Source: a virus
Taxonomy: Duplodnaviria > Caudoviricetes
Strand: one strand, 5' to 3'
DNA: 64,000 bases
Virus record (IMG/VR): IMGVR_UViG_3300006467_000454
Location: 1 to 64,000 of that record
Numbering within the stretch: the first letter of the stretch is position 1; every line of letters begins with the position of its first letter. A program made the translations under genes and the position numbers. This document shows, one piece after another, positions 2,641 through 14,061 of this stretch. The notes under the pieces were generated by a model, which saw nothing but the letters and a program-made list of their open reading frames with translations, made no database searches and was not told the DNA's origin.

Positions 2641-4278
<1,638 letters not shown>

Positions 4279-9057: not shown

Positions 9058-9088
9058 TTTGTATAGAACAAAATTTGAGATACTTTTG
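9058..9088 (+). promoter_or_regulatory. sigmaA-type promoter of the RNA operon
   Basis: TTTG-N19-TACTTTTG, with the palindrome at 9015-9035 upstream. Confidence 0.8.
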
Positions 9089-9113
9089 ACGTGTCACTTT
9101 TAAGTAAGTGGGA

Positions 9114-9190
9114 TGGGGTATAGCTCAGTTGGGTAGAGCATTACATGCTGTTACATGTAAAGGTCAATGGTTCGATTCCATTTATCCCTA
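9114..9190 (+). tRNA. tRNA-Asn(GTT)-like RNA with enlarged anticodon arm
   Basis: Normal D arm (GCTC/GAGC) and T arm (AATGG-TTCGATT-CCATT). The anticodon arm TTACATG-CTGTTA-CATGTAA is 3 nt longer than canonical. Confidence 0.7.
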
Positions 9191-9191
9191 C

Positions 9192-9609
9192 GAAGTTCAT
9201 TGAAATTAATTGGAGACTATTTTGGACGAGGGTTCGATACCCTCCAGCTCCACAAACGAAAACGGATGGAAGTACAACTAAAGTTTTCGGGTGTACTATG
9301 ACATGTAATCGCTCAGCGTTGCAGGTATCAGGTTAGGCACTAAACTTATTAGTGGGGGAGGATTGATTAGTGATCGCCTCTCCTGCAAGCCAAATAGCCT
9401 AGTTTTGACCGTGGGTACTAGGAATTAAATATTAAAAACTGATGGTGACCCAGCGAGAGTGCTGGCTAGGGGTTGAATGGCTTTGACAGAATAGAATAGT
9501 AGGTTAATGGAGGCTTCAAAACCGCTTTAAACGGCAAAACAATTAAACTTTTCGATAACGAGCCTAAGATGGCTGCGTAATTGAACGTTCTCCCTGACGT
9601 AACAGGGAA
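9192..9609 (+). ncRNA. ssrA: circularly permuted (two-piece) tmRNA
   Basis: The acceptor piece (9192-9252, GGACGAGGGTTCGATACCCTCCAGCTCCA) precedes the coding piece (from 9469, GGGGTTGAATGGCTTTGACAG). G3-U70 pair is present. Tag frame 9533-9580 encodes GKTIKLFDNEPKMAA*. Confidence 0.9.
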
Positions 9610-9611
9610 TT

Positions 9612-9694
9612 GGAAGATTGGCAGAGTGGTTAATGCAGCGGTTTGCTAAATCGTGGTCAGAAATGATCCGGAGGTTCGATCCCTTCATCTTCCG
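9612..9694 (+). tRNA. tRNA-Ser(GCT)
   Basis: GGAAGAT/ATCTTCC acceptor, GCGGT-TTGCTAA-ATCGT anticodon arm, long variable arm. Confidence 0.92.
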
Positions 9695-9817
9695 CAACTT
9701 ATTTGATGTTTTGTTATTTAAGTTTTATTAGATGTTTGGGTTTTGCAAGGTGGGTACTTTGGGTGGTGCCCACCTTATCTATCAGCCCTTTATTTTTAAT
9801 AGTTAATCTTTAAAATT

Positions 9818-11407
9818 ATGTCGAAGTATAATCGAAAAAAAGAAATTGAAAAGGTGCCAACTCTACAAGGTGGAGTAGGGGTACAAATGTCGGACGAGCA
9901 CGCATTGGTTGGGTTGCTTTCTACAGGTTTGGAAGGTAAGTTCTATGAAATGGAAAAAACTCGTGAGGATCGCTTAAAAGACCTTATTCGTAAGGTGGCA
10001 AAGAAAGATAAATATCTTGTTGCGCAAATGATCGTTTATACCCGTACTGTATTCGGGCAACGTTCAATCACTCACCGTGCTGCTGTTGAATTAGCGAAAT
10101 ACCTCCCAGGAGAAGATTGGGGTAAATGGTTTTTCTCTAAGTGGAATAAGAAAGAAAATAAAGGTGGGGTAATCTTCCGTCTTGATGATATTTTAGAAAT
10201 TGCAGCCTGTTATAAGCATTTCAATAAGGATGCGAACCTTTCTAACGCAATCAAAAAAGGATTTGCAATGGCTATTGAGTCTGCTGACCCATACGAGATA
10301 GCTAAGTACCAAGGGAAAGGTAAGGATGTATCTTTGGTGGATATTGTTAATCTTGTTCACCCAAATCCATCTTCGAAGAACGCTGAAGCATTGAAACAGC
10401 TTATTGCAGGTAATTTGAAGCAGTTTAATACTGCCGAAGATAAGAACACCAAATCCGGACAAGAAGTTGCTAAGAAAGTTAAAGCAGGTAAAATCACCAA
10501 AGAGGAAGCGAAAGTTGAATTGAAGGAGAAAAAGTCTGAAAACTGGAAGGCACTTATCGGTGAAGGTACTATCGGATATTTATCATTGTTGCGTAATATC
10601 AAGAATATTATTAACACTGATGCAAGTTTGGTAGAATCAATGTGTGAATTGCTTGTTGATAAAAGGAAGGTTAAAGAGTCTTTAGTTTTCCCTCACCAAA
10701 TTGATTTGGCTTTATGTGAATTAGAAAGCCAAGGGTTTGATCAACAAACTATCAATAGGATCCAAAGCACGTTATCAACTGCTTATGAAATTTCAGTTGA
10801 AAACGTAAAAGAACTTGGTATGGATGCCCATACTGCGGTTGTGTATGATACTTCCGGATCAATGCAAGGTAAAGAAGGTGGCTATTGGGGATTCCCTAAT
10901 GCATCTATCAACGGGAAAGAATCTAATTATTCCCCATTGAATAAAGCTTCTTTAATTGCTGCCACTTTAGCAAAAGGGCTTGGGTGTGATGTTTATCAAT
11001 TTGCAACAACTTGTGAGAAGGTAATGTATCGTGCAATGGATTCAGTATTTTCTATAAAAGATAAGTTCAGGCAAATGCAAGGGAGAGTTGGCCATGGGAC
11101 AACATTTGGCTCAATTTTTGGTAAATTGGATAAACCTTACAACAGGATATTCATTATAACCGATGGGCAAGGTAACGATTCCATATTGAAGAACTCAACA
11201 TTCCAAAGCTATAAGCGTCAATTTGGTGTGAATCCATATATCTACTATGTTAATTTATGTGGATATGATAAATTAATGTTCAAGGAAAATGAAAGATTTT
11301 TCCATATTCCAGGATATTCAGCGAGTATTTATGAGCTTGCTTCTAAGTATGAGGTGGATCCTAAAGCATTGATAAAAGAAATTAGAAAAATTAGGATAAA
11401 GTACTAG
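9818..11407 (+). CDS. Ro60/Rsr-like TROVE domain RNA-binding protein
   Basis: TROVE-like features (FYE...RL..LI; R.DDILEI.A; KKG.A....A..Y..AKY; SLVD.VNLVHP; W..LI..G..GY..LLRN; FPHQI) and a C-terminal vWA (VYDTSGSM, IITDGQ). Confidence 0.9.
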   Translation: MSKYNRKKEIEKVPTLQGGVGVQMSDEHALVGLLSTGLEGKFYEMEKTREDRLKDLIRKVAKKDKYLVAQMIVYTRTVFGQRSITHRAAVELAKYLPGEDWGKWFFSKWNKKENKGGVIFRLDDILEIAACYKHFNKDANLSNAIKKGFAMAIESADPYEIAKYQGKGKDVSLVDIVNLVHPNPSSKNAEALKQLIAGNLKQFNTAEDKNTKSGQEVAKKVKAGKITKEEAKVELKEKKSENWKALIGEGTIGYLSLLRNIKNIINTDASLVESMCELLVDKRKVKESLVFPHQIDLALCELESQGFDQQTINRIQSTLSTAYEISVENVKELGMDAHTAVVYDTSGSMQGKEGGYWGFPNASINGKESNYSPLNKASLIAATLAKGLGCDVYQFATTCEKVMYRAMDSVFSIKDKFRQMQGRVGHGTTFGSIFGKLDKPYNRIFIITDGQGNDSILKNSTFQSYKRQFGVNPYIYYVNLCGYDKLMFKENERFFHIPGYSASIYELASKYEVDPKALIKEIRKIRIKY

Positions 11408-11440
11408 GTTTTTAAATAATATTTATTACCTTTACTGTAT

Positions 11441-11603
11441 GATTAGGTACTGAGGAATGCGGTTACTTCGTTTTATCTAGGTTCGAGTCCTAGTCTCCCC
11501 GCAAAAAGTTCAAGTAAAATTGGGGAGATGGTGAAATTGGTAGACACGCAAAAATTAGGGTTTTGTATTACAACAATAACACCGCTTCCAACTTCGTCCT
11601 ATC
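11441..11603 (+). ncRNA. Y-RNA-like RNA 1 containing a circularly permuted tRNA-Leu(TAG)-like module
   Basis: Closing stem GGAATGCGGT/ACCGCTTCC with GGTTACTTCG. Inside, in order: T arm, 3' acceptor strand, loop, 5' acceptor strand, D arm, anticodon arm. Begins about 34 nt after the Ro60 stop. Confidence 0.8.
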
Positions 11604-11680
11604 TTTGTTCTAAGATAGTTTTCATTTCTATAAGTTAATAATTATATTTGGAGGATCTCGGGGGCGGGAGACTCCTACTT

Positions 11681-11753
11681 GGTCCGTTCGACAAGCGGTT
11701 TAAGTCACCAGACTTTCGATCTGGAGTCATGGGTTCGAATCCCATACGGACTA
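11681..11753 (+). tRNA. tRNA-Glu(TTC)
   Basis: GGTCCGT/ACGGACT acceptor; CCAGA-CTTTCGA-TCTGG anticodon arm. Confidence 0.9.
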
Positions 11754-11755
11754 CT

Positions 11756-11872
11756 AAAAGGATGGTAAGGAAACAGGCTTACTTCGTAGCTCAAGTGGTA
11801 GAGCAATTTACTGTTAATAAATGTGTTAGGGTTCAAGTCCCTCTGTAGCCTATCCAATTTCCCTCCTTTTTT
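11756..11872 (+). ncRNA. Y-RNA-like RNA 2 containing D, anticodon (GTT) and T arms without an acceptor stem
   Basis: AAAAGGA..GG/CCCTCCTTTT and AGGCT/AGCCT stems; GGCTTACTTCG motif; ATTTA-CTGTTAA-TAAAT anticodon arm. Confidence 0.72.
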
Positions 11873-11944
11873 GAAAAGAAGCTTTTTGTTTTTTGATTAT
11901 ATTTTGGTTCATTCATCGGGGAGATAAAGTTCTCCTCGGTTTTT

Positions 11945-12021
11945 AGTCTCAGGGGCTGCTGGGTGTGGCCACCTCCCTGTCACGGAGGAAGATCAGATGG
12001 GTTCGAATCCCATTGGGACTG
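11945..12021 (+). tRNA. tRNA-Asp(GTC)
   Basis: AGTCTCA/TGGGACT acceptor; CCTCC-CTGTCAC-GGAGG anticodon arm. Confidence 0.88.
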
Positions 12022-12023
12022 CT

Positions 12024-12154
12024 AGGGGTAGTAACAGGAAAGGGTTACTTCGTATAATTAGCTCAATTGGTCGAGCATTTGTTTTAGGCACAAAGGGTTG
12101 CGGGTTCGATCCCCGTGTTATAAATAAAGATCACCCTCCTATTTTCCTCCCCTT
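12024..12154 (+). ncRNA. Y-RNA-like RNA 3 enclosing an in-order tRNA-like cloverleaf (anticodon TAG, short variable loop)
   Basis: AGGGG/CCCCT and AGGA.AGGGT/ACCCTCCT stems; GGGTTACTTCG motif; TTTGT-TTTAGGC-ACAAA anticodon arm; GCGGG-TTCGATC-CCCGT T arm. Confidence 0.72.
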
Positions 12155-12157
12155 TAT

Positions 12158-12230
12158 ATGGATGTGGCGTAGTTGGTAGCGCACCTGCTTTGGGAGCAGG
12201 GGGTCGTAGGTTCGAGTCCTACTATCCATA
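12158..12230 (+). tRNA. tRNA-Pro(TGG)
   Basis: ATGGATG/TATCCAT acceptor; CCTGC-TTTGGGA-GCAGG anticodon arm. Confidence 0.9.
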
Positions 12231-12236
12231 CAAATA

Positions 12237-12472
12237 AGTCCAATGGCAGAATTGGACAATTGCGCCTATCGGGTAGCAGTTGGGGTTGAGCCCATTGTTA
12301 GGGGTAGGTGGTAACAGGCGTAACATGGATGTGATGAAGCTTTGGGGTCGCTCCCTGATTCATTCGGAATTGAAAACCAGATTCATTGAAGTGGAAAGTA
12401 CTGTAATTAGGAAGCAGGGAGTACGTATTACCTGTGGAATATCCGTTGGGGGTTCGAGTCCCCCTTGGGCTT
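12237..12472 (+). ncRNA. about 235-nt tRNA-framed structured RNA of unknown family
   Basis: Acceptor AGTCCAA/TTGGGCT, D arm and perfect T arm, with about 180 nt of paired insert in place of the anticodon and variable arms. Confidence 0.7.
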
Positions 12473-12480
12473 ATTTACTT

Positions 12481-12555
12481 AGTCGTATGGTATAGCTGGT
12501 TTAATACACAAGAATTTGGCTCTTGAGATCCTAGGTTCGAATCCTAGTACGACTT
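12481..12555 (+). tRNA. tRNA-Gln(TTG)
   Basis: AGTCGTA/TACGACT acceptor; CAAGA-ATTTGGC-TCTTG anticodon arm. Confidence 0.88.
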
Positions 12556-12565
12556 CTAAATTTAT

Positions 12566-12680
12566 AGAGATATGGCAGCCTAAATACTAGTCGGGGTGGG
12601 TCAGGGTGCAACTTCATGATAGTAAGAGCTCTGGTGGTGTTTCTTGATTGATGCTGGGGGTTCGAGTCCCTCTTTCTCTA
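12566..12680 (+). ncRNA. tRNA-like RNA: acceptor stem + T arm + one long hairpin
   Basis: AGAGATA/TTTCTCT acceptor; GGGGG-TTCGAGT-CCCTC T arm; TAGTCGGGG/TTCTTGATTG and CAGGGT/GCTCTG stems; no D stem. Confidence 0.6.
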
Positions 12681-12682
12681 CT

Positions 12683-12756
12683 GTGTTGTTAGCTTATGTG
12701 GTAAAAGCGTCAGATTGTGGTTCTGAAGATTAGGGTTCGAGTCCCTGCAGCACCCA
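12683..12756 (+). tRNA. tRNA-His(GTG)
   Basis: GTGTTGT/GCAGCAC acceptor; TCAGA-TTGTGGT-TCTGA anticodon arm. Confidence 0.85.
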
Positions 12757-12773
12757 GTTTAAAATATATTTTT

Positions 12774-12847
12774 GGGTAGGTAGCTCAGATGGCTAGAGCA
12801 GTTGACTGTTAATCATCAGGTCGGGAGTTCGAATCTCCCCCTTCCCT
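12774..12847 (+). tRNA. tRNA-Asn(GTT)
   Basis: GGGTAGG/CCTTCCC acceptor; GTTGA-CTGTTAA-TCATC anticodon arm. Confidence 0.85.
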
Positions 12848-12909
12848 CAGTTAAAATTAGGGTGACTATGTTTTAGCCACCCTATACATGTTTAACCAAA
12901 TTAAAATGT

Positions 12910-14061
12910 ATGAAAACTTATGCAAAGATTATTTTGTTTATTGCAGCGTATTTTGTGTTTCTATTAAATCCAATGGATCTATTTGCCCCTCCTTCTAATT
13001 ATATTATCAGGGCGAATGGGGAATTCCTTTGGGAGAAAATGAAAATTGACAAATTAGAAAAAGAAAACGAGAAAGCAATTCATGCTTTAGGGATGTACGA
13101 ATCCCGAATGAACGCCAAAGCATATAATAGCATCGGGGCTATGGGCTGTTGGCAATTTATGCCGAATACAATTAAATATTTTGGATATAAAGGCATAACT
13201 CTCCAAAAATTCAAAAGGGATCCTGAAATCTTCCCTAAATCCCTCCAAGAGAAATTAATCAATTTAAAAATAAATGATGATATAAAACAACTGAAGAATC
13301 AATGGTGGAGACCTGATTCTAGAGATGTTGATTATATCGAAAAATATGTAGGAAAAGAATTCAAAGGTGTGAAAGTCACCCTATTTGGGATATTGGCTGC
13401 ATGCCATATTTCCGGATACGGTAACGTTGTCAAATTGTTTGATAACGGGTATAACCCAAAAGATATCAATGGACAAAGCCCTTTAAAGTATTTGAAGCGG
13501 TTTTCCAAGTATAAATTTACTGATCCAAAGGTTATAAACGCATCACTTGAAAAATTGGAATATGAAAGATCTATGAAATTAGCCAAACTTTTTGTTTTGC
13601 CAAAAAAAAATGATAATTTTATAGAAAATTGGTATTATTTGAAATTTCAAACAATGATTAGACAAGCCAAAAAGGATTTTGATATCCTAGTAGAAAAGAA
13701 TAATTTGGAAGTTTACACAAAAGAAGAAGCTGCCGAATTGTTGACGAAAAAATTCAAGGCGTTCCAAGACCTTGAGAAAAGTGAGGATGCTAAATCAGTT
13801 GATGCATTAAATGAATTCCGTGCGGAAGCATCTTGTTTCACGCATGTGCAAGTTATTTCTGAAAGGGATGACGCATTTGATAAATCTTTAGATTACAAGA
13901 ATGTTTACGTTCGCCCTCAAGTTTTTGTTAAAAAAGAAGAAGAAATAATCGAAAAATCAGAAAATGGGGAGGAAACCCCTAAAACTGTTGAGGTTGGGGT
14001 CTACACAGAATGCCCATTGAATGAAGCTTTGGGGAGAGTTGGACAAAAATTTGATCTGTAA
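12910..14061 (+). CDS. lysozyme-like/lytic transglycosylase domain in frame with a putative virion protein (likely internal start at 13654)
   Basis: Signal/TM N-terminus; ESRMNAKAYNSIGAMGCWQFM motif. The C-terminal 135 aa are acidic and rich in EKS motifs. Confidence 0.65.
   Translation: MKTYAKIILFIAAYFVFLLNPMDLFAPPSNYIIRANGEFLWEKMKIDKLEKENEKAIHALGMYESRMNAKAYNSIGAMGCWQFMPNTIKYFGYKGITLQKFKRDPEIFPKSLQEKLINLKINDDIKQLKNQWWRPDSRDVDYIEKYVGKEFKGVKVTLFGILAACHISGYGNVVKLFDNGYNPKDINGQSPLKYLKRFSKYKFTDPKVINASLEKLEYERSMKLAKLFVLPKKNDNFIENWYYLKFQTMIRQAKKDFDILVEKNNLEVYTKEEAAELLTKKFKAFQDLEKSEDAKSVDALNEFRAEASCFTHVQVISERDDAFDKSLDYKNVYVRPQVFVKKEEEIIEKSENGEETPKTVEVGVYTECPLNEALGRVGQKFDL

What the first reader, a model, noticed from the sequence alone, without database searches (positions are those of the whole stretch)
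9058..12847. Phage RNA locus combining Ro60, three Y-RNA-like RNAs, a split tmRNA and tRNA-framed RNAs
Seen: one promoter precedes a pseudo-tRNA, a permuted tmRNA, tRNA-Ser and Ro60/TROVE. About 1.4 kb of back-to-back RNAs follows. Three share a closing stem 5'-AGG..GGA.(1-4)GG(T/C)TACTTCG...CC.TCC(A/T)A(C/T)TT..TCC-3' (11441, 11756, 12024), each enclosing a different tRNA-like module. Established: bacterial Rsr binds neighbouring Y RNAs, YrlA RNAs mimic tRNA, and Rsr loci are linked to RNA damage and repair. Inference: this is a phage toolkit against translation-targeting defence, supplying replacement tRNAs, Ro-tethered tRNA decoys and ribosome rescue. No RtcB or SmpB gene is visible in this window.
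Basis: partly seen in the sequence, partly recalled or inferred. Interest (0 to 1): 0.9.

Follow-up and report, generated by a model that had tools for sequence, protein, structure and literature searches.

The report
Phage Ro60 with three partner RNAs
A complete 108-kb phage, probably of Bacteroidota, encodes the ring-shaped RNA-binding protein Ro60 and, among its tRNA and tmRNA genes, three small RNAs that share a conserved docking stem but carry three differently wired tRNA look-alikes; the stem defines a widespread phage Y-RNA family that is not in Rfam, while its proposed anti-defence role is untested.

Summary
Window 9114-12847 contains:
- an aberrant tRNA
- a circularly permuted tmRNA
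- tRNA-Ser
- a full-length Ro60 gene (TROVE plus vWA/MIDAS)
- a 1.4-kb ORF-poor run of six good tRNAs, one aberrant tRNA, three stem-closed RNAs and two unexplained tRNA-framed RNAs

The three stem-closed RNAs are real members of a conserved family. Covariance models built only from other phages recover all three (E 1e-13, 2e-4 and 2e-4). Nothing else in the 108-kb genome matches.

The family "handle" is a basal stem, a bulged U, two pairs, a UAA/AUU loop, an upper helix and an invariant UUACUUCG. It shows compensatory changes at all 16 modelled pairs.
- It occurs in 45 of 51 Ro60 loci.
- All 115 matches lie on the Ro60 strand.
- In five whole phage records it occurs only within about 7 kb of Ro60.

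Rfam's YrlA model does not detect it. I class it as a new variant of the Ro60/Y-RNA kind.

The cargo is modular: none, YrlA-like, a permuted whole tRNA, or an in-order tRNA. The phage has no RtcB, SmpB, CCA enzyme or Rnl2-type RNA ligase gene.

The anti-defence "toolkit" reading is untested. Earlier notes of this scan describe the same UACUUCG handle in other genomes.

The parts
9059..9088 (+). Promoter-like match of Bacteroidota type (TTTG, about 21 nt, TACTTTTG), 26 nt upstream of the first RNA gene
   Evidence: This is a consensus match only; the motif occurs about 0.94 times per kb on this strand genome-wide, so the evidence is weak.
9114..9190 (+). Aberrant tRNA-like gene with a normal acceptor, D and T arms but a 7-bp anticodon stem and a 6-nt loop
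   Evidence: ARAGORN tRNA-???; Rfam tRNA 53.6 bits with an enlarged anticodon region.
9192..9580 (+). Circularly permuted (two-piece) tmRNA: acceptor piece with T arm and CAGCUCC-A, a spacer of about 190-215 nt, then a coding piece starting GGGGUUG; tag frame 9533-9580
   Evidence: RF04321 60.5 bits (gathering score 47), model positions 1-213. ARAGORN gives a permuted tmRNA with tag GKTIKLFDNEPKMAA*. The G3-U70 pair is read from the alignment.
9612..9694 (+). tRNA-Ser(GCU) with a long variable arm
   Evidence: 52 bits.
9745..9785 (+). Strong hairpin between tRNA-Ser and the Ro60 start; either a terminator or attenuator, or a 5' UTR structure
   Evidence: Fold of 9696-9817 gives z = -4.09, with 0 of 200 shuffles folding as well. 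Listed as terminator-like.
9818..11407 (+). Ro60/Rsr homolog, 529 aa: TROVE domain plus a vWA domain with MIDAS motif DTSGS, GHGTT and ITDGQG
   Evidence: Pfam TROVE 1.4e-9. 744 homologs were found, the best at 50-58% identity. The family profile matches phage phiLo Ro60 9KOP/9L5Y at E 1.8e-28 over residues 14-511, and also Rsr 2NVO and Ro60 1YVP. Translation.
11443..11602 (+). Handle RNA 1. The handle encloses a permuted whole tRNA: T arm, an acceptor-like stem closed by a 19-nt loop, a 3-bp D arm, and an anticodon arm with a 7-nt loop reading UAG
   Evidence: R2 71.8 bits, E 1.1e-13. Alignment with 15 relatives; sub-hairpin folds. It carries a rare compensatory C:G at the normally G:C handle pair.
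11681..11753 (+). tRNA-Glu(UUC), preceded by a GC-rich hairpin at 11650-11676
   Evidence: (62.7 bits).
11758..11868 (+). Handle RNA 2. The handle is directly continuous with D, anticodon (GUU, Asn-type) and T arms in normal order, with no proper acceptor stem
   Evidence: R1 32.9 bits, E 8.6e-6 with filters off and E 2.1e-4 for the whole genome. Rfam tRNA matches only model positions 3-68. Fold.
11915..11944 (+). Terminator-like hairpin followed by a T run
   Evidence: fold z = -2.7.
11945..12022 (+). Aberrant tRNA-Asp(GUC)-like gene
   Evidence: ARAGORN. Rfam gives only tRNA-Sec at 20 bits, E 1.7. It is 79% similar over 61 nt to a tRNA region in L049.
12024..12153 (+). Handle RNA 3. The handle frames a complete in-order cloverleaf (anticodon UAG, short variable loop, A/U-rich acceptor stem). 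The last G of UACUUCG is tRNA position +1
   Evidence: R1 32.5 bits, E 1.6e-4. R2 37.6 bits. ARAGORN and Rfam tRNA at 12052-12124, 48.7 bits. Same layout as L011:1739-1869.
12158..12230 (+). tRNA-Pro(UGG)
   Evidence: 67.4 bits.
12237..12472 (+). RNA of about 235 nt with paired ends and a perfect T arm; no family found and not a handle RNA
   Evidence: Fold (z = -1.2; only the centroid pairs the two ends). No R1 match, no Rfam match and no BLAST relative in the fetched loci. Unverified.
12481..12555 (+). tRNA-Gln(UUG)
   Evidence: 61.5 bits.
12566..12680 (+). tRNA-like RNA of about 115 nt: acceptor-like stem, T arm and one long hairpin
   Evidence: Fold (z = +0.36, so no thermodynamic support). 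No relatives found. Unverified.
12683..12754 (+). tRNA-His(GUG)
   Evidence: 48.1 bits.
12774..12847 (+). tRNA-Asn(GUU)
   Evidence: 63.3 bits.
12858..12884 (.). 11-bp hairpin that closes the RNA island, before the SLT-domain gene at 12910

Best explanation
The locus is the RNA-gene island of a complete 108-kb phage, probably of Bacteroidota. It encodes a phage Ro60 ribonucleoprotein.

**Proposed mechanism**
- The 529-aa Ro60 ring is predicted to bind the shared 'handle' of three small RNAs made from the same island.
- The handle reads, from the ends inward: a 4-6 bp variable basal stem, a bulged U, an R:Y pair plus a G:C pair, an internal loop (5' UAA against 3' AUU), a 7-9 bp variable upper helix, and an invariant UUACUUCG facing an A-rich 3' strand.
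- Each RNA displays a different tRNA-shaped cargo beyond the handle:
  - RNA 1: a permuted whole tRNA with a capped acceptor stem.
  - RNA 2: an acceptor-less tRNA body.
  - RNA 3: a complete cloverleaf.
- By analogy with characterised Y RNAs, the handle docks the RNA on Ro60. The cargo would then recruit or occupy tRNA-binding factors or an exoribonuclease such as host PNPase, redirecting or damping host RNA turnover during infection.
- The RNAs are probably cut out of polycistronic tRNA transcripts by host tRNA-processing enzymes.
- The neighbouring tRNAs and the two-piece tmRNA are ordinary residents of the same island, not proven parts of one machine.

**Shown here**: gene identities, family membership, covariation, strand and distance linkage to Ro60, and cargo topologies.

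**Inferred**: Ro60 binding, processing, effector recruitment and biological role.
For: **Protein**
- TROVE hit, full-length profile matches to solved Ro60 structures, and an intact MIDAS motif.

**RNA family**
- Independent models recover all three RNAs. They find nothing else in the 108-kb genome.
- All 115 R1 matches in 51 Ro60 loci lie on the Ro60 strand, in 45 of 51 loci, at 1-6 per locus.
- 91.9% of cells are paired, against 61.9% in shuffles. All 16 pairs show double changes. The covariation score is 0.743, against 0.20 for shuffles and 0.10-0.17 for slid partners.
- All 13 matches in about 977 kb of five whole phage records lie within about 7 kb of Ro60, on its strand.
- The handle also sits beside more distant Ro60 genes: a 635-kb phage at 38% identity and gut phage csAssE-Sib at 27% identity.
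- Loci with Ro60 plus one handle RNA and no tRNA show that this pair is the core.

**Literature**
- Ro60 binds the closing stem of Y RNAs. YrlA mimics tRNA and lies within 4 kb of Ro60 on the same strand (PMC4201824).
- Phage phiLo Ro60 binds two adjacent Y-like RNAs and, with them, host PNPase, whose activity is attenuated (PMC12135203).
Against: - No binding, expression or processing data exist; the phage is uncultured.
- The handle lacks the GNCGAAN0-1G motif thought to mediate Rsr recognition in YrlA. Rfam YrlA scores at most 19.7 bits here, against a gathering score of 69. Docking on Ro60 is therefore inferred from linkage and architecture only.
- Seeds for R1 were chosen by a script that required pairing, and alignment A5 is fitted to the model. 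The pairing statistics lean towards the structure for both reasons.
- Thermodynamic z-scores of the three RNAs are unremarkable, from -0.3 to -0.9.
- In-order cargos such as RNA 3 could simply be tRNA precursors. Their maturation would split the handle.
Confidence: 0.72

Rival explanations
1. One reading: an integrated counter-defence toolkit. Free tRNAs would replace tRNAs cut by host anticodon nucleases. Handle RNAs would be Ro60-tethered decoys that soak up such nucleases. The tmRNA would rescue ribosomes stalled by the damage.
For: - Phage tRNAs can evade tRNA-targeting defences (PMC10264068).
- All three cargos keep a 7-nt anticodon loop: UAG, GUU and UAG.
- The free tRNA set includes His, Asn and an Asp-like tRNA, all with GUN anticodons.
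- Ro60, tRNA arrays and tmRNA co-occur repeatedly.
Against: - There is no direct evidence.
- Cargo anticodons across the family are diverse, and about half of the members carry no tRNA-like cargo.
- Several loci have Ro60 plus a handle RNA without any tRNA or tmRNA.
- The phage has no RtcB, Rnl2-type ligase, SmpB or CCA enzyme.
- Co-location is equally explained by shared transcription and processing.
Confidence: 0.18
2. Handle-framed in-order tRNAs, such as RNA 3, are true tRNA precursors. In this reading Ro60 is a chaperone, quality-control factor or gate for the maturation of particular phage tRNAs, and the handle is a leader-trailer duplex that is removed.
For: - In the in-order class the final G of UACUUCG is tRNA position +1.
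- Some framed tRNAs score as excellent tRNAs, for example L011 1767-1839 at 72.8 bits.
- Database annotation already calls one of them tRNA-Tyr (L055).
- M. smegmatis YrlA is cut by RNase P and receives CCA (PMC4201824).
Against: - RNA 2 has no acceptor stem, and RNA 1 has a capped acceptor stem, so neither can be charged.
- RNA 3 pairs a Leu anticodon with a short variable loop and has a G1-A72 mismatch.
- 43 of 87 members carry no tRNA-like part.
Confidence: 0.15
3. The shared stem is a processing or transcription signal of phage tRNA operons, such as an RNase III/E site or a terminator/antiterminator. It would have no specific relation to Ro60.
For: - Most members lie inside co-oriented tRNA arrays.
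- An AAATATT-like motif often precedes members in other loci.
Against: - Members occur next to Ro60 in loci with no tRNA.
- Whole phage records show the handle only near Ro60, although tRNA arrays extend further.
- Invariant loop nucleotides together with freely covarying helices are typical of a protein-binding RNA.
Confidence: 0.06

Closest known systems
YrlA-type bacterial and phage Y RNAs with Rsr/Ro60 (Rfam RF02553; Chen et al. 2014, PMC4201824)
   Same: - Small RNAs encoded within a few kb of Ro60 on the same strand.
- The 5' and 3' ends pair into a bulged, two-helix stem.
- A YUAY element (here UUAC) sits at the top of the stem.
- A tRNA-like module has T and D arms.
- RNA 1 keeps the YrlA order of T arm, closed acceptor-like stem, then D arm.
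   Different: - The handle signature is G-U-R-G-U-A-A ... UUACUUCG / UUC-Y-C rather than GNCGAAN0-1G.
- The Rfam YrlA model scores at most 19.7 bits here, against a gathering score of 69. It detects CcrColossus at 42 bits, where my model R1 finds nothing.
- RNA 1 also keeps an anticodon arm, so the handle leaves from the variable-loop position rather than replacing the anticodon arm.
- RNAs 2 and 3 carry in-order tRNA bodies, with the handle replacing or extending the acceptor stem.
- About half of the family has no tRNA-like part.
Thermus phage phiLo Ro60 with Yrl1 and Yrl2 (PDB 9KOP, 9L5Y; PMC12135203)
   Same: - A phage-encoded Ro60 with several adjacent Y-like RNAs.
- It is the best solved-structure match of this protein family (E 1.8e-28).
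- It is the only phage system with binding data: Ro60-RNA, plus host PNPase.
   Different: - Protein identity is about 24%.
- The phiLo RNAs were chosen by a CGAA motif, and R1 does not match that locus.
- The phiLo RNAs lie upstream of Ro60 and are not embedded in a tRNA/tmRNA array.
Metazoan and Deinococcus Y RNAs (Ro60 binding to a conserved bulged helix formed by the RNA ends)
   Same: - The overall plan is a terminal helix with a bulged pyrimidine flanked by G:C pairs, then an internal loop, then a variable effector module.
   Different: - The conserved letters differ.
- The resemblance of the bulged helix is recalled from the literature and was not tested here.
Two-piece (circularly permuted) tmRNA, Rfam RF04321
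   Same: - Acceptor piece upstream of the coding piece.
- G3-U70 pair and a tag frame ending AA-stop.
- Score above the gathering threshold.
   Different: - An unusually long spacer, about 190-215 nt, separates the two pieces.
- It is encoded by a phage that has no smpB.
Phage tRNA arrays proposed to evade tRNA-targeting host defences (van den Berg et al. 2023, PMC10264068)
   Same: - Clustered, co-oriented phage tRNA genes, including isoacceptors that are typical nuclease targets.
   Different: - No evidence here ties the array or the Ro60 RNAs to a defence system.

Membership tests
Ro60/Rsr protein (TROVE PF05731 + vWA) | TROVE (HEAT-repeat ring) domain | tested here: met
   Pfam TROVE E 1.4e-9, 38.1 bits against a cut-off of 23. 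The family profile aligns to residues 21-487 of phiLo Ro60, and also to Rsr 2NVO and Ro60 1YVP.
Ro60/Rsr protein (TROVE PF05731 + vWA) | C-terminal vWA domain with a MIDAS motif (DxSxS, T, D) | tested here: met
   DTSGS at 344-348, GHGTT around 428 and ITDGQG around 449. [quoted passage not shown]
Ro60/Rsr protein (TROVE PF05731 + vWA) | Closed ring fold with a central cavity | not tested
   No structure prediction was run; this is inferred from full-length sequence homology.
Y RNA (general class) | Encoded close to Ro60, on the same strand | tested here: met
   The three RNAs lie 36 to about 750 nt downstream of Ro60. For the family: 115 of 115 matches are co-oriented, in 45 of 51 loci, and 13 of 13 matches in whole records lie within about 7 kb.
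Y RNA (general class) | 5' and 3' ends pair into a conserved bulged stem supported by covariation | tested here: met
   91.9% paired, 16 of 16 pairs with compensatory changes, far above the shuffled and slid controls. Caveat: the alignment is fitted to the model.
Y RNA (general class) | Bound by Ro60 | not testable with these tools
   Needs EMSA, RIP or a structure.
YrlA (Rfam RF02553) | Scores above the Rfam gathering threshold (69 bits) | tested here: not met
   Best scores are 19.7 and 17.0 bits, covering only model positions 28-81, at tRNA junctions. There is no match on RNA 1 alone.
YrlA (Rfam RF02553) | GNCGAAN0-1G motif near the 5' end | tested here: not met
   The family consensus at that place is G-U-R-G-U-A-A. 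The window RNAs read GUACUGA, AUGGUAA and GUAGUAA.
YrlA (Rfam RF02553) | tRNA-like domain in the order T arm, closed acceptor-like stem, D arm, with the Ro stem in place of the anticodon arm | tested here: inconclusive
   RNA 1 has the T, closed-acceptor, D order but keeps an anticodon arm. RNAs 2 and 3 have in-order tRNA bodies.
YrlA (Rfam RF02553) | Conserved YUAY at the top of the stem | tested here: met
   UUAC is 98-100% conserved. The YUAY feature is described in PMC4201824.
Permuted tmRNA (RF04321) | Model score above gathering; acceptor piece upstream of coding piece; G3-U70; tag frame ending in a stop | tested here: met
   60.5 bits against 47. The alignment shows both pieces and the UAA stop. 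ARAGORN gives the tag peptide.
Permuted tmRNA (RF04321) | SmpB partner encoded by the same genome | tested here: not met
   No SmpB in the complete 108-kb genome. The host protein would be needed.

The most novel reading that the evidence does not exclude
The UACUUCG handle may be a portable Ro60-docking tag that large phages graft onto whole tRNAs at three different attachment points: the variable loop, in place of the acceptor stem, or outside the acceptor stem. A phage Ro60 ring would then carry a changing panel of tRNA look-alikes. These could work in either of two ways:
- As Ro60-held decoys or sponges for host tRNA-directed enzymes, including immune anticodon nucleases.
- As Ro60-gated tRNA precursors released on demand.

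Either way, Ro60 would be linked directly to tRNA biology in phage-host conflict.
Probability: 0.15. Interest if true: 0.85.

Novelty: new variant of a known kind. Interest (0 to 1): 0.62.

Why it matters
- Ro60/Y-RNA particles are conserved from bacteria to humans, where Ro60 is a lupus and Sjögren autoantigen. What the tRNA-like module of bacterial Y RNAs does is still unknown.
- This phage family offers a natural experiment. One conserved docking stem is combined with no cargo, YrlA-like cargo, permuted whole tRNAs or in-order tRNAs, often several per genome.
- Comparing what each cargo binds could show what the tRNA mimicry is for.
- The family is absent from Rfam, so these genes are left unannotated or are called tRNAs. 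The annotated tRNA-Tyr of phage csAssE-Sib lies inside such a frame.
- The work also defines a recurrent RNA island of large uncultured phages: tRNA array, Ro60, handle RNAs, often a tmRNA and sometimes GOLLD.

Tried and rejected
1. **Rfam.** All families were run on the window and the region, at gathering and at E up to 10. No YrlA, Y_RNA or other family covers the three RNAs or the 235-nt and 115-nt RNAs.
2. **Close relatives of the locus.** Similarity to GenBank phages is confined to tRNA-sized pieces. A single-protein scan of IMG/VR found nothing. The alignment-based scan was needed.
3. **Thermodynamic support.** The z-scores of the three RNAs are not significant. The case rests on comparative data.
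4. **My first automated stem finder.** It mis-assigned many 3' arms and was replaced by a stricter script and by Infernal models.
5. **R1 on RNA 1.** It does not detect RNA 1 (7 bits), which has a long cargo and a swapped pair. RNA 1 needed the class-specific model R2.
6. **Extra R2 matches.** The matches at 11691-11846 and 12405-12537 are rejected as junctions of neighbouring tRNA or tRNA-like genes: a T arm, then the next gene's D arm.
7. **The 235-nt RNA as a fourth handle RNA.** It contains GGUGGUAAC, but there is no R1 match and the 3' partner does not fit.
8. **RNA repair partners.** RtcB, Rnl2-type ligase, SmpB and the CCA enzyme are absent. The Rnl1 search was uninformative because its control did not ring.
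9. **Reviews.** PMC10870794 and PMC6047535 are not held.
10. **BLAST of the odd RNAs** against the fetched loci gave only tRNA-like matches.

Full report
**What is in the sequence**

The window is the first 64 kb of a complete 108,320-bp virus record with direct terminal repeats and 36% G+C. All of the genome's tRNA-type genes lie in 9114-12848. The flanking genes are an amidase, an SLT-domain protein and a portal. The portal's nearest cultured relatives, at about 30% identity, are Chryseobacterium and Bacteroides phages. A Bacteroidota host is therefore probable but not shown.

ARAGORN and Rfam agree on the following genes:
- An aberrant tRNA at 9114-9190, with an extended anticodon stem and a 6-nt loop.
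- A circularly permuted tmRNA at 9192-9580, scoring 60.5 bits on RF04321 against a gathering score of 47.
- tRNA-Ser at 9612-9694.

The tmRNA alignment shows the T arm and CAGCUCC-A upstream, a spacer of roughly 190-215 nt, and then GGGGUUG. This pairs to give the alanine G3-U70 wobble. The tag frame ends ...PKMAA-stop.

ORF 9818-11407 is a full-length Ro60 homolog:
- Pfam TROVE at E 1.4e-9.
- 744 homologs, the best at 50-58% identity.
- A family profile that matches phage phiLo Ro60 (9KOP/9L5Y, E 1.8e-28, nearly end to end), Deinococcus Rsr and vertebrate Ro60.
- An intact MIDAS motif.

Downstream, 11441-12847 has no ORF above 71 aa. It holds tRNA-Glu, Pro, Gln, His and Asn, a weak Asp-like tRNA, the three stem-closed RNAs and two odd tRNA-framed RNAs.

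**Are the three stem-closed RNAs real?**

The heptamer TACTTCG occurs at 11464, 11780 and 12046, and only once elsewhere on the plus strand of the genome. In 45 IMG/VR contigs and 6 MAG contigs that encode relatives of this Ro60, the same heptamer is strongly over-represented on the Ro60 strand. It is always preceded by G-U-R-G-U-A-A and a variable helix.

I built model R1 from 20 short members of other contigs (A4).
- In the 64-kb window, on both strands, R1 finds only 12024-12153 (32.5 bits, E 1.6e-4) and 11759-11867.
- With filters off, the second match scores 32.9 bits.
- In the whole genome these are the only two matches.

RNA 1 has a 125-nt cargo and a swapped pair, and R1 misses it. Model R2, built from 15 permuted-class members of other contigs (A7), finds it at 11443-11602 with 71.8 bits, E 1.1e-13.

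**Family evidence**

- Across 51 Ro60 loci plus the window (569 kb, both strands), R1 gives 115 matches at E up to 0.1. Every one is on the Ro60 strand, in 45 of 51 loci, at 1-6 per locus.
- On the 85 distinct sequences, 91.9% of cells pair, against 61.9% after shuffling.
- All 16 modelled pairs show changes on both sides.
- The covariation score is 0.743. It is 0.20 for shuffles and 0.10-0.17 when partners are slid.
- The pair next to the bulged U is A:U in 54 sequences and G:C in 31, with no mispairs.

There are two caveats. My seed script required pairing, and A5 is fitted to the model. The strand bias and the location evidence do not depend on either.

In five whole phage records (about 977 kb), all 13 matches lie within about 7 kb of Ro60, on its strand.

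The conserved letters are G(87%) U(100) R G(98) U(99) A A(99), then UUACUUCG (85-100%), and on the 3' side U(100) U(99) C(98) Y C(87).

**Relation to known Y RNAs**

Chen et al. (PMC4201824) defined YrlA by four features:
- a 5' GNCGAAN0-1G motif
- a YUAY element
- a tRNA-like domain in the order T arm, closed acceptor-like stem, D arm
- a position within 4 kb of Ro60 on the same strand

They reported YrlA in 254 bacteria and 22 phages.

Here the genomic linkage, the two-helix bulged stem and the YUAY element (UUAC) are shared. The GNCGAA motif is replaced. Rfam YrlA gives at most 19.7 bits, against a gathering score of 69.

The converse also holds. YrlA detects the Caulobacter phage CcrColossus locus (42 bits), where R1 finds nothing. 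R1 finds nothing at phiLo either. R1 does match beside more distant Ro60 genes: a 635-kb uncultured phage and gut phage csAssE-Sib. In csAssE-Sib one match encloses an annotated tRNA-Tyr.

I found no paper describing this handle. I therefore class it as a new variant of the Y-RNA kind, not a member of Rfam YrlA.

**Cargo**

Among 87 distinct members:
- 43 are short (62-107 nt), with only an A-rich loop.
- About 20 carry a permuted module with the T arm first.
- About 20 carry an in-order tRNA body, with varied anticodons.

The window has one RNA of each tRNA-bearing kind.
- **RNA 1** reads: handle, T arm, an 8-bp acceptor-like stem capped by a 19-nt loop, a 3-bp D arm, an anticodon arm with a 7-nt loop reading UAG, then the handle again. 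The handle leaves from the variable-loop position rather than replacing the anticodon arm as in YrlA.
- **RNA 2** runs from the handle straight into D, anticodon (GUU) and T arms, with no acceptor stem. Rfam tRNA matches only model positions 3-68.
- **RNA 3** frames a complete cloverleaf. The last G of UACUUCG is tRNA +1, as in L011:1739-1869.

**Context**

In related loci, Ro60 sits in co-oriented tRNA arrays of up to 24 tRNAs per 11 kb, with none on the opposite strand. A tmRNA is present in at least 8 of 51 loci, some of them near-identical contigs. GOLLD RNA is present in 4 of the 13 loci scanned.

Several loci have only Ro60 plus one short handle RNA and no tRNA. The pair is therefore the core, and the tRNA/tmRNA neighbourhood is a frequent setting.

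The complete genome lacks RtcB, SmpB, a CCA-adding enzyme and Rnl2-type ligase.

**How it most likely works**

- *Shown here:* the identities, family membership, covariation, linkage and topologies above.
- *Established elsewhere:* Ro60 binds the closing stem of Y RNAs. The second module tethers effectors such as PNPase. The phage phiLo Ro60-RNA complex binds host PNPase and attenuates it (PMC4201824, PMC12135203).
- *Inferred:* this phage's Ro60 docks on the handle, and the tRNA-shaped cargos engage tRNA-binding factors or exoribonucleases to reshape RNA turnover during infection. The RNAs would be released from tRNA-operon transcripts by host processing enzymes.

The counter-defence reading (decoys, replacement tRNAs and ribosome rescue acting together) is compatible with this but untested. 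The diversity of cargo anticodons and the many cargo-less members do not favour a single-nuclease decoy.

**Transcription signals and unexplained parts**

- The promoter claim rests on a consensus match at 9059-9088 of a motif that occurs about once per kb.
- Hairpins at 9745-9785 (z = -4.1), 11915-11944 and 12858-12884 suggest more than one transcription unit.
- The 235-nt and 115-nt tRNA-framed RNAs have no relatives in the fetched loci and no Rfam match. They remain unexplained.

**Earlier notes of this scan**

Earlier notes describe the same UACUUCG handle beside Ro60 in other genomes. One called it ordinary YrlA. My tests do not support filing it under Rfam YrlA.

Noticed in passing
L003:3489-3905, L004:3519-3933, L008:4491-4917, L011:2913-3328: GOLLD RNA (RF02032, 239-288 bits) lies 0.1-2 kb upstream of the Ro60 gene, on the same strand, in 4 of the 13 related phage loci scanned. 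No held paper mentions both GOLLD and Ro60.
   Followed up: partly
window 9254-9468: The spacer between the two pieces of the permuted tmRNA is unusually long, about 190-215 nt. In the Rfam alignment it appears as one large insertion. The permuted tmRNA in L020 spans only 159 nt in total.
   Followed up: no
L055:3642-3740 (phage csAssE-Sib, OR575929.1): The annotated tRNA-Tyr (3666-3738) lies inside a handle frame matched by R1, just upstream of the 'Ro sixty-related protein'. Public annotation may therefore count such chimeras as plain tRNAs.
   Followed up: partly
many loci, e.g. L016:700-713, L008:1232-1245, L046:3215-3228: A motif like TTGAAAATATT or AAATATT sits 4-8 nt upstream of many handle RNAs in other contigs. 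It could be a dedicated promoter or a processing signal. It is absent before window RNAs 2 and 3, which directly follow tRNA or tRNA-like genes.
   Followed up: no
window 11691-11846 and 12405-12537: The permuted-class model R2 gives weak matches where the T arm of one tRNA or tRNA-like gene is followed by the D arm of the next. This suggests that permuted tRNA-like cargos could have arisen from junctions of tandem tRNA genes.
   Followed up: no
window 9114-9190: This tRNA has good acceptor, D and T arms but a 7-bp anticodon stem and a 6-nt loop. It lies immediately 5' of the tmRNA acceptor piece. ARAGORN even tries to use its T arm as part of the tmRNA.
   Followed up: partly
L008:3387-3586: A group I intron (RF00028, 60.7 bits) lies inside the tRNA array next to Ro60 in a related phage.
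   Followed up: no
window 12237-12472 and 12566-12680: Two RNAs with tRNA-like ends and T arms but large non-tRNA interiors. They have no Rfam match and no relatives in the 55 fetched loci.
   Followed up: partly
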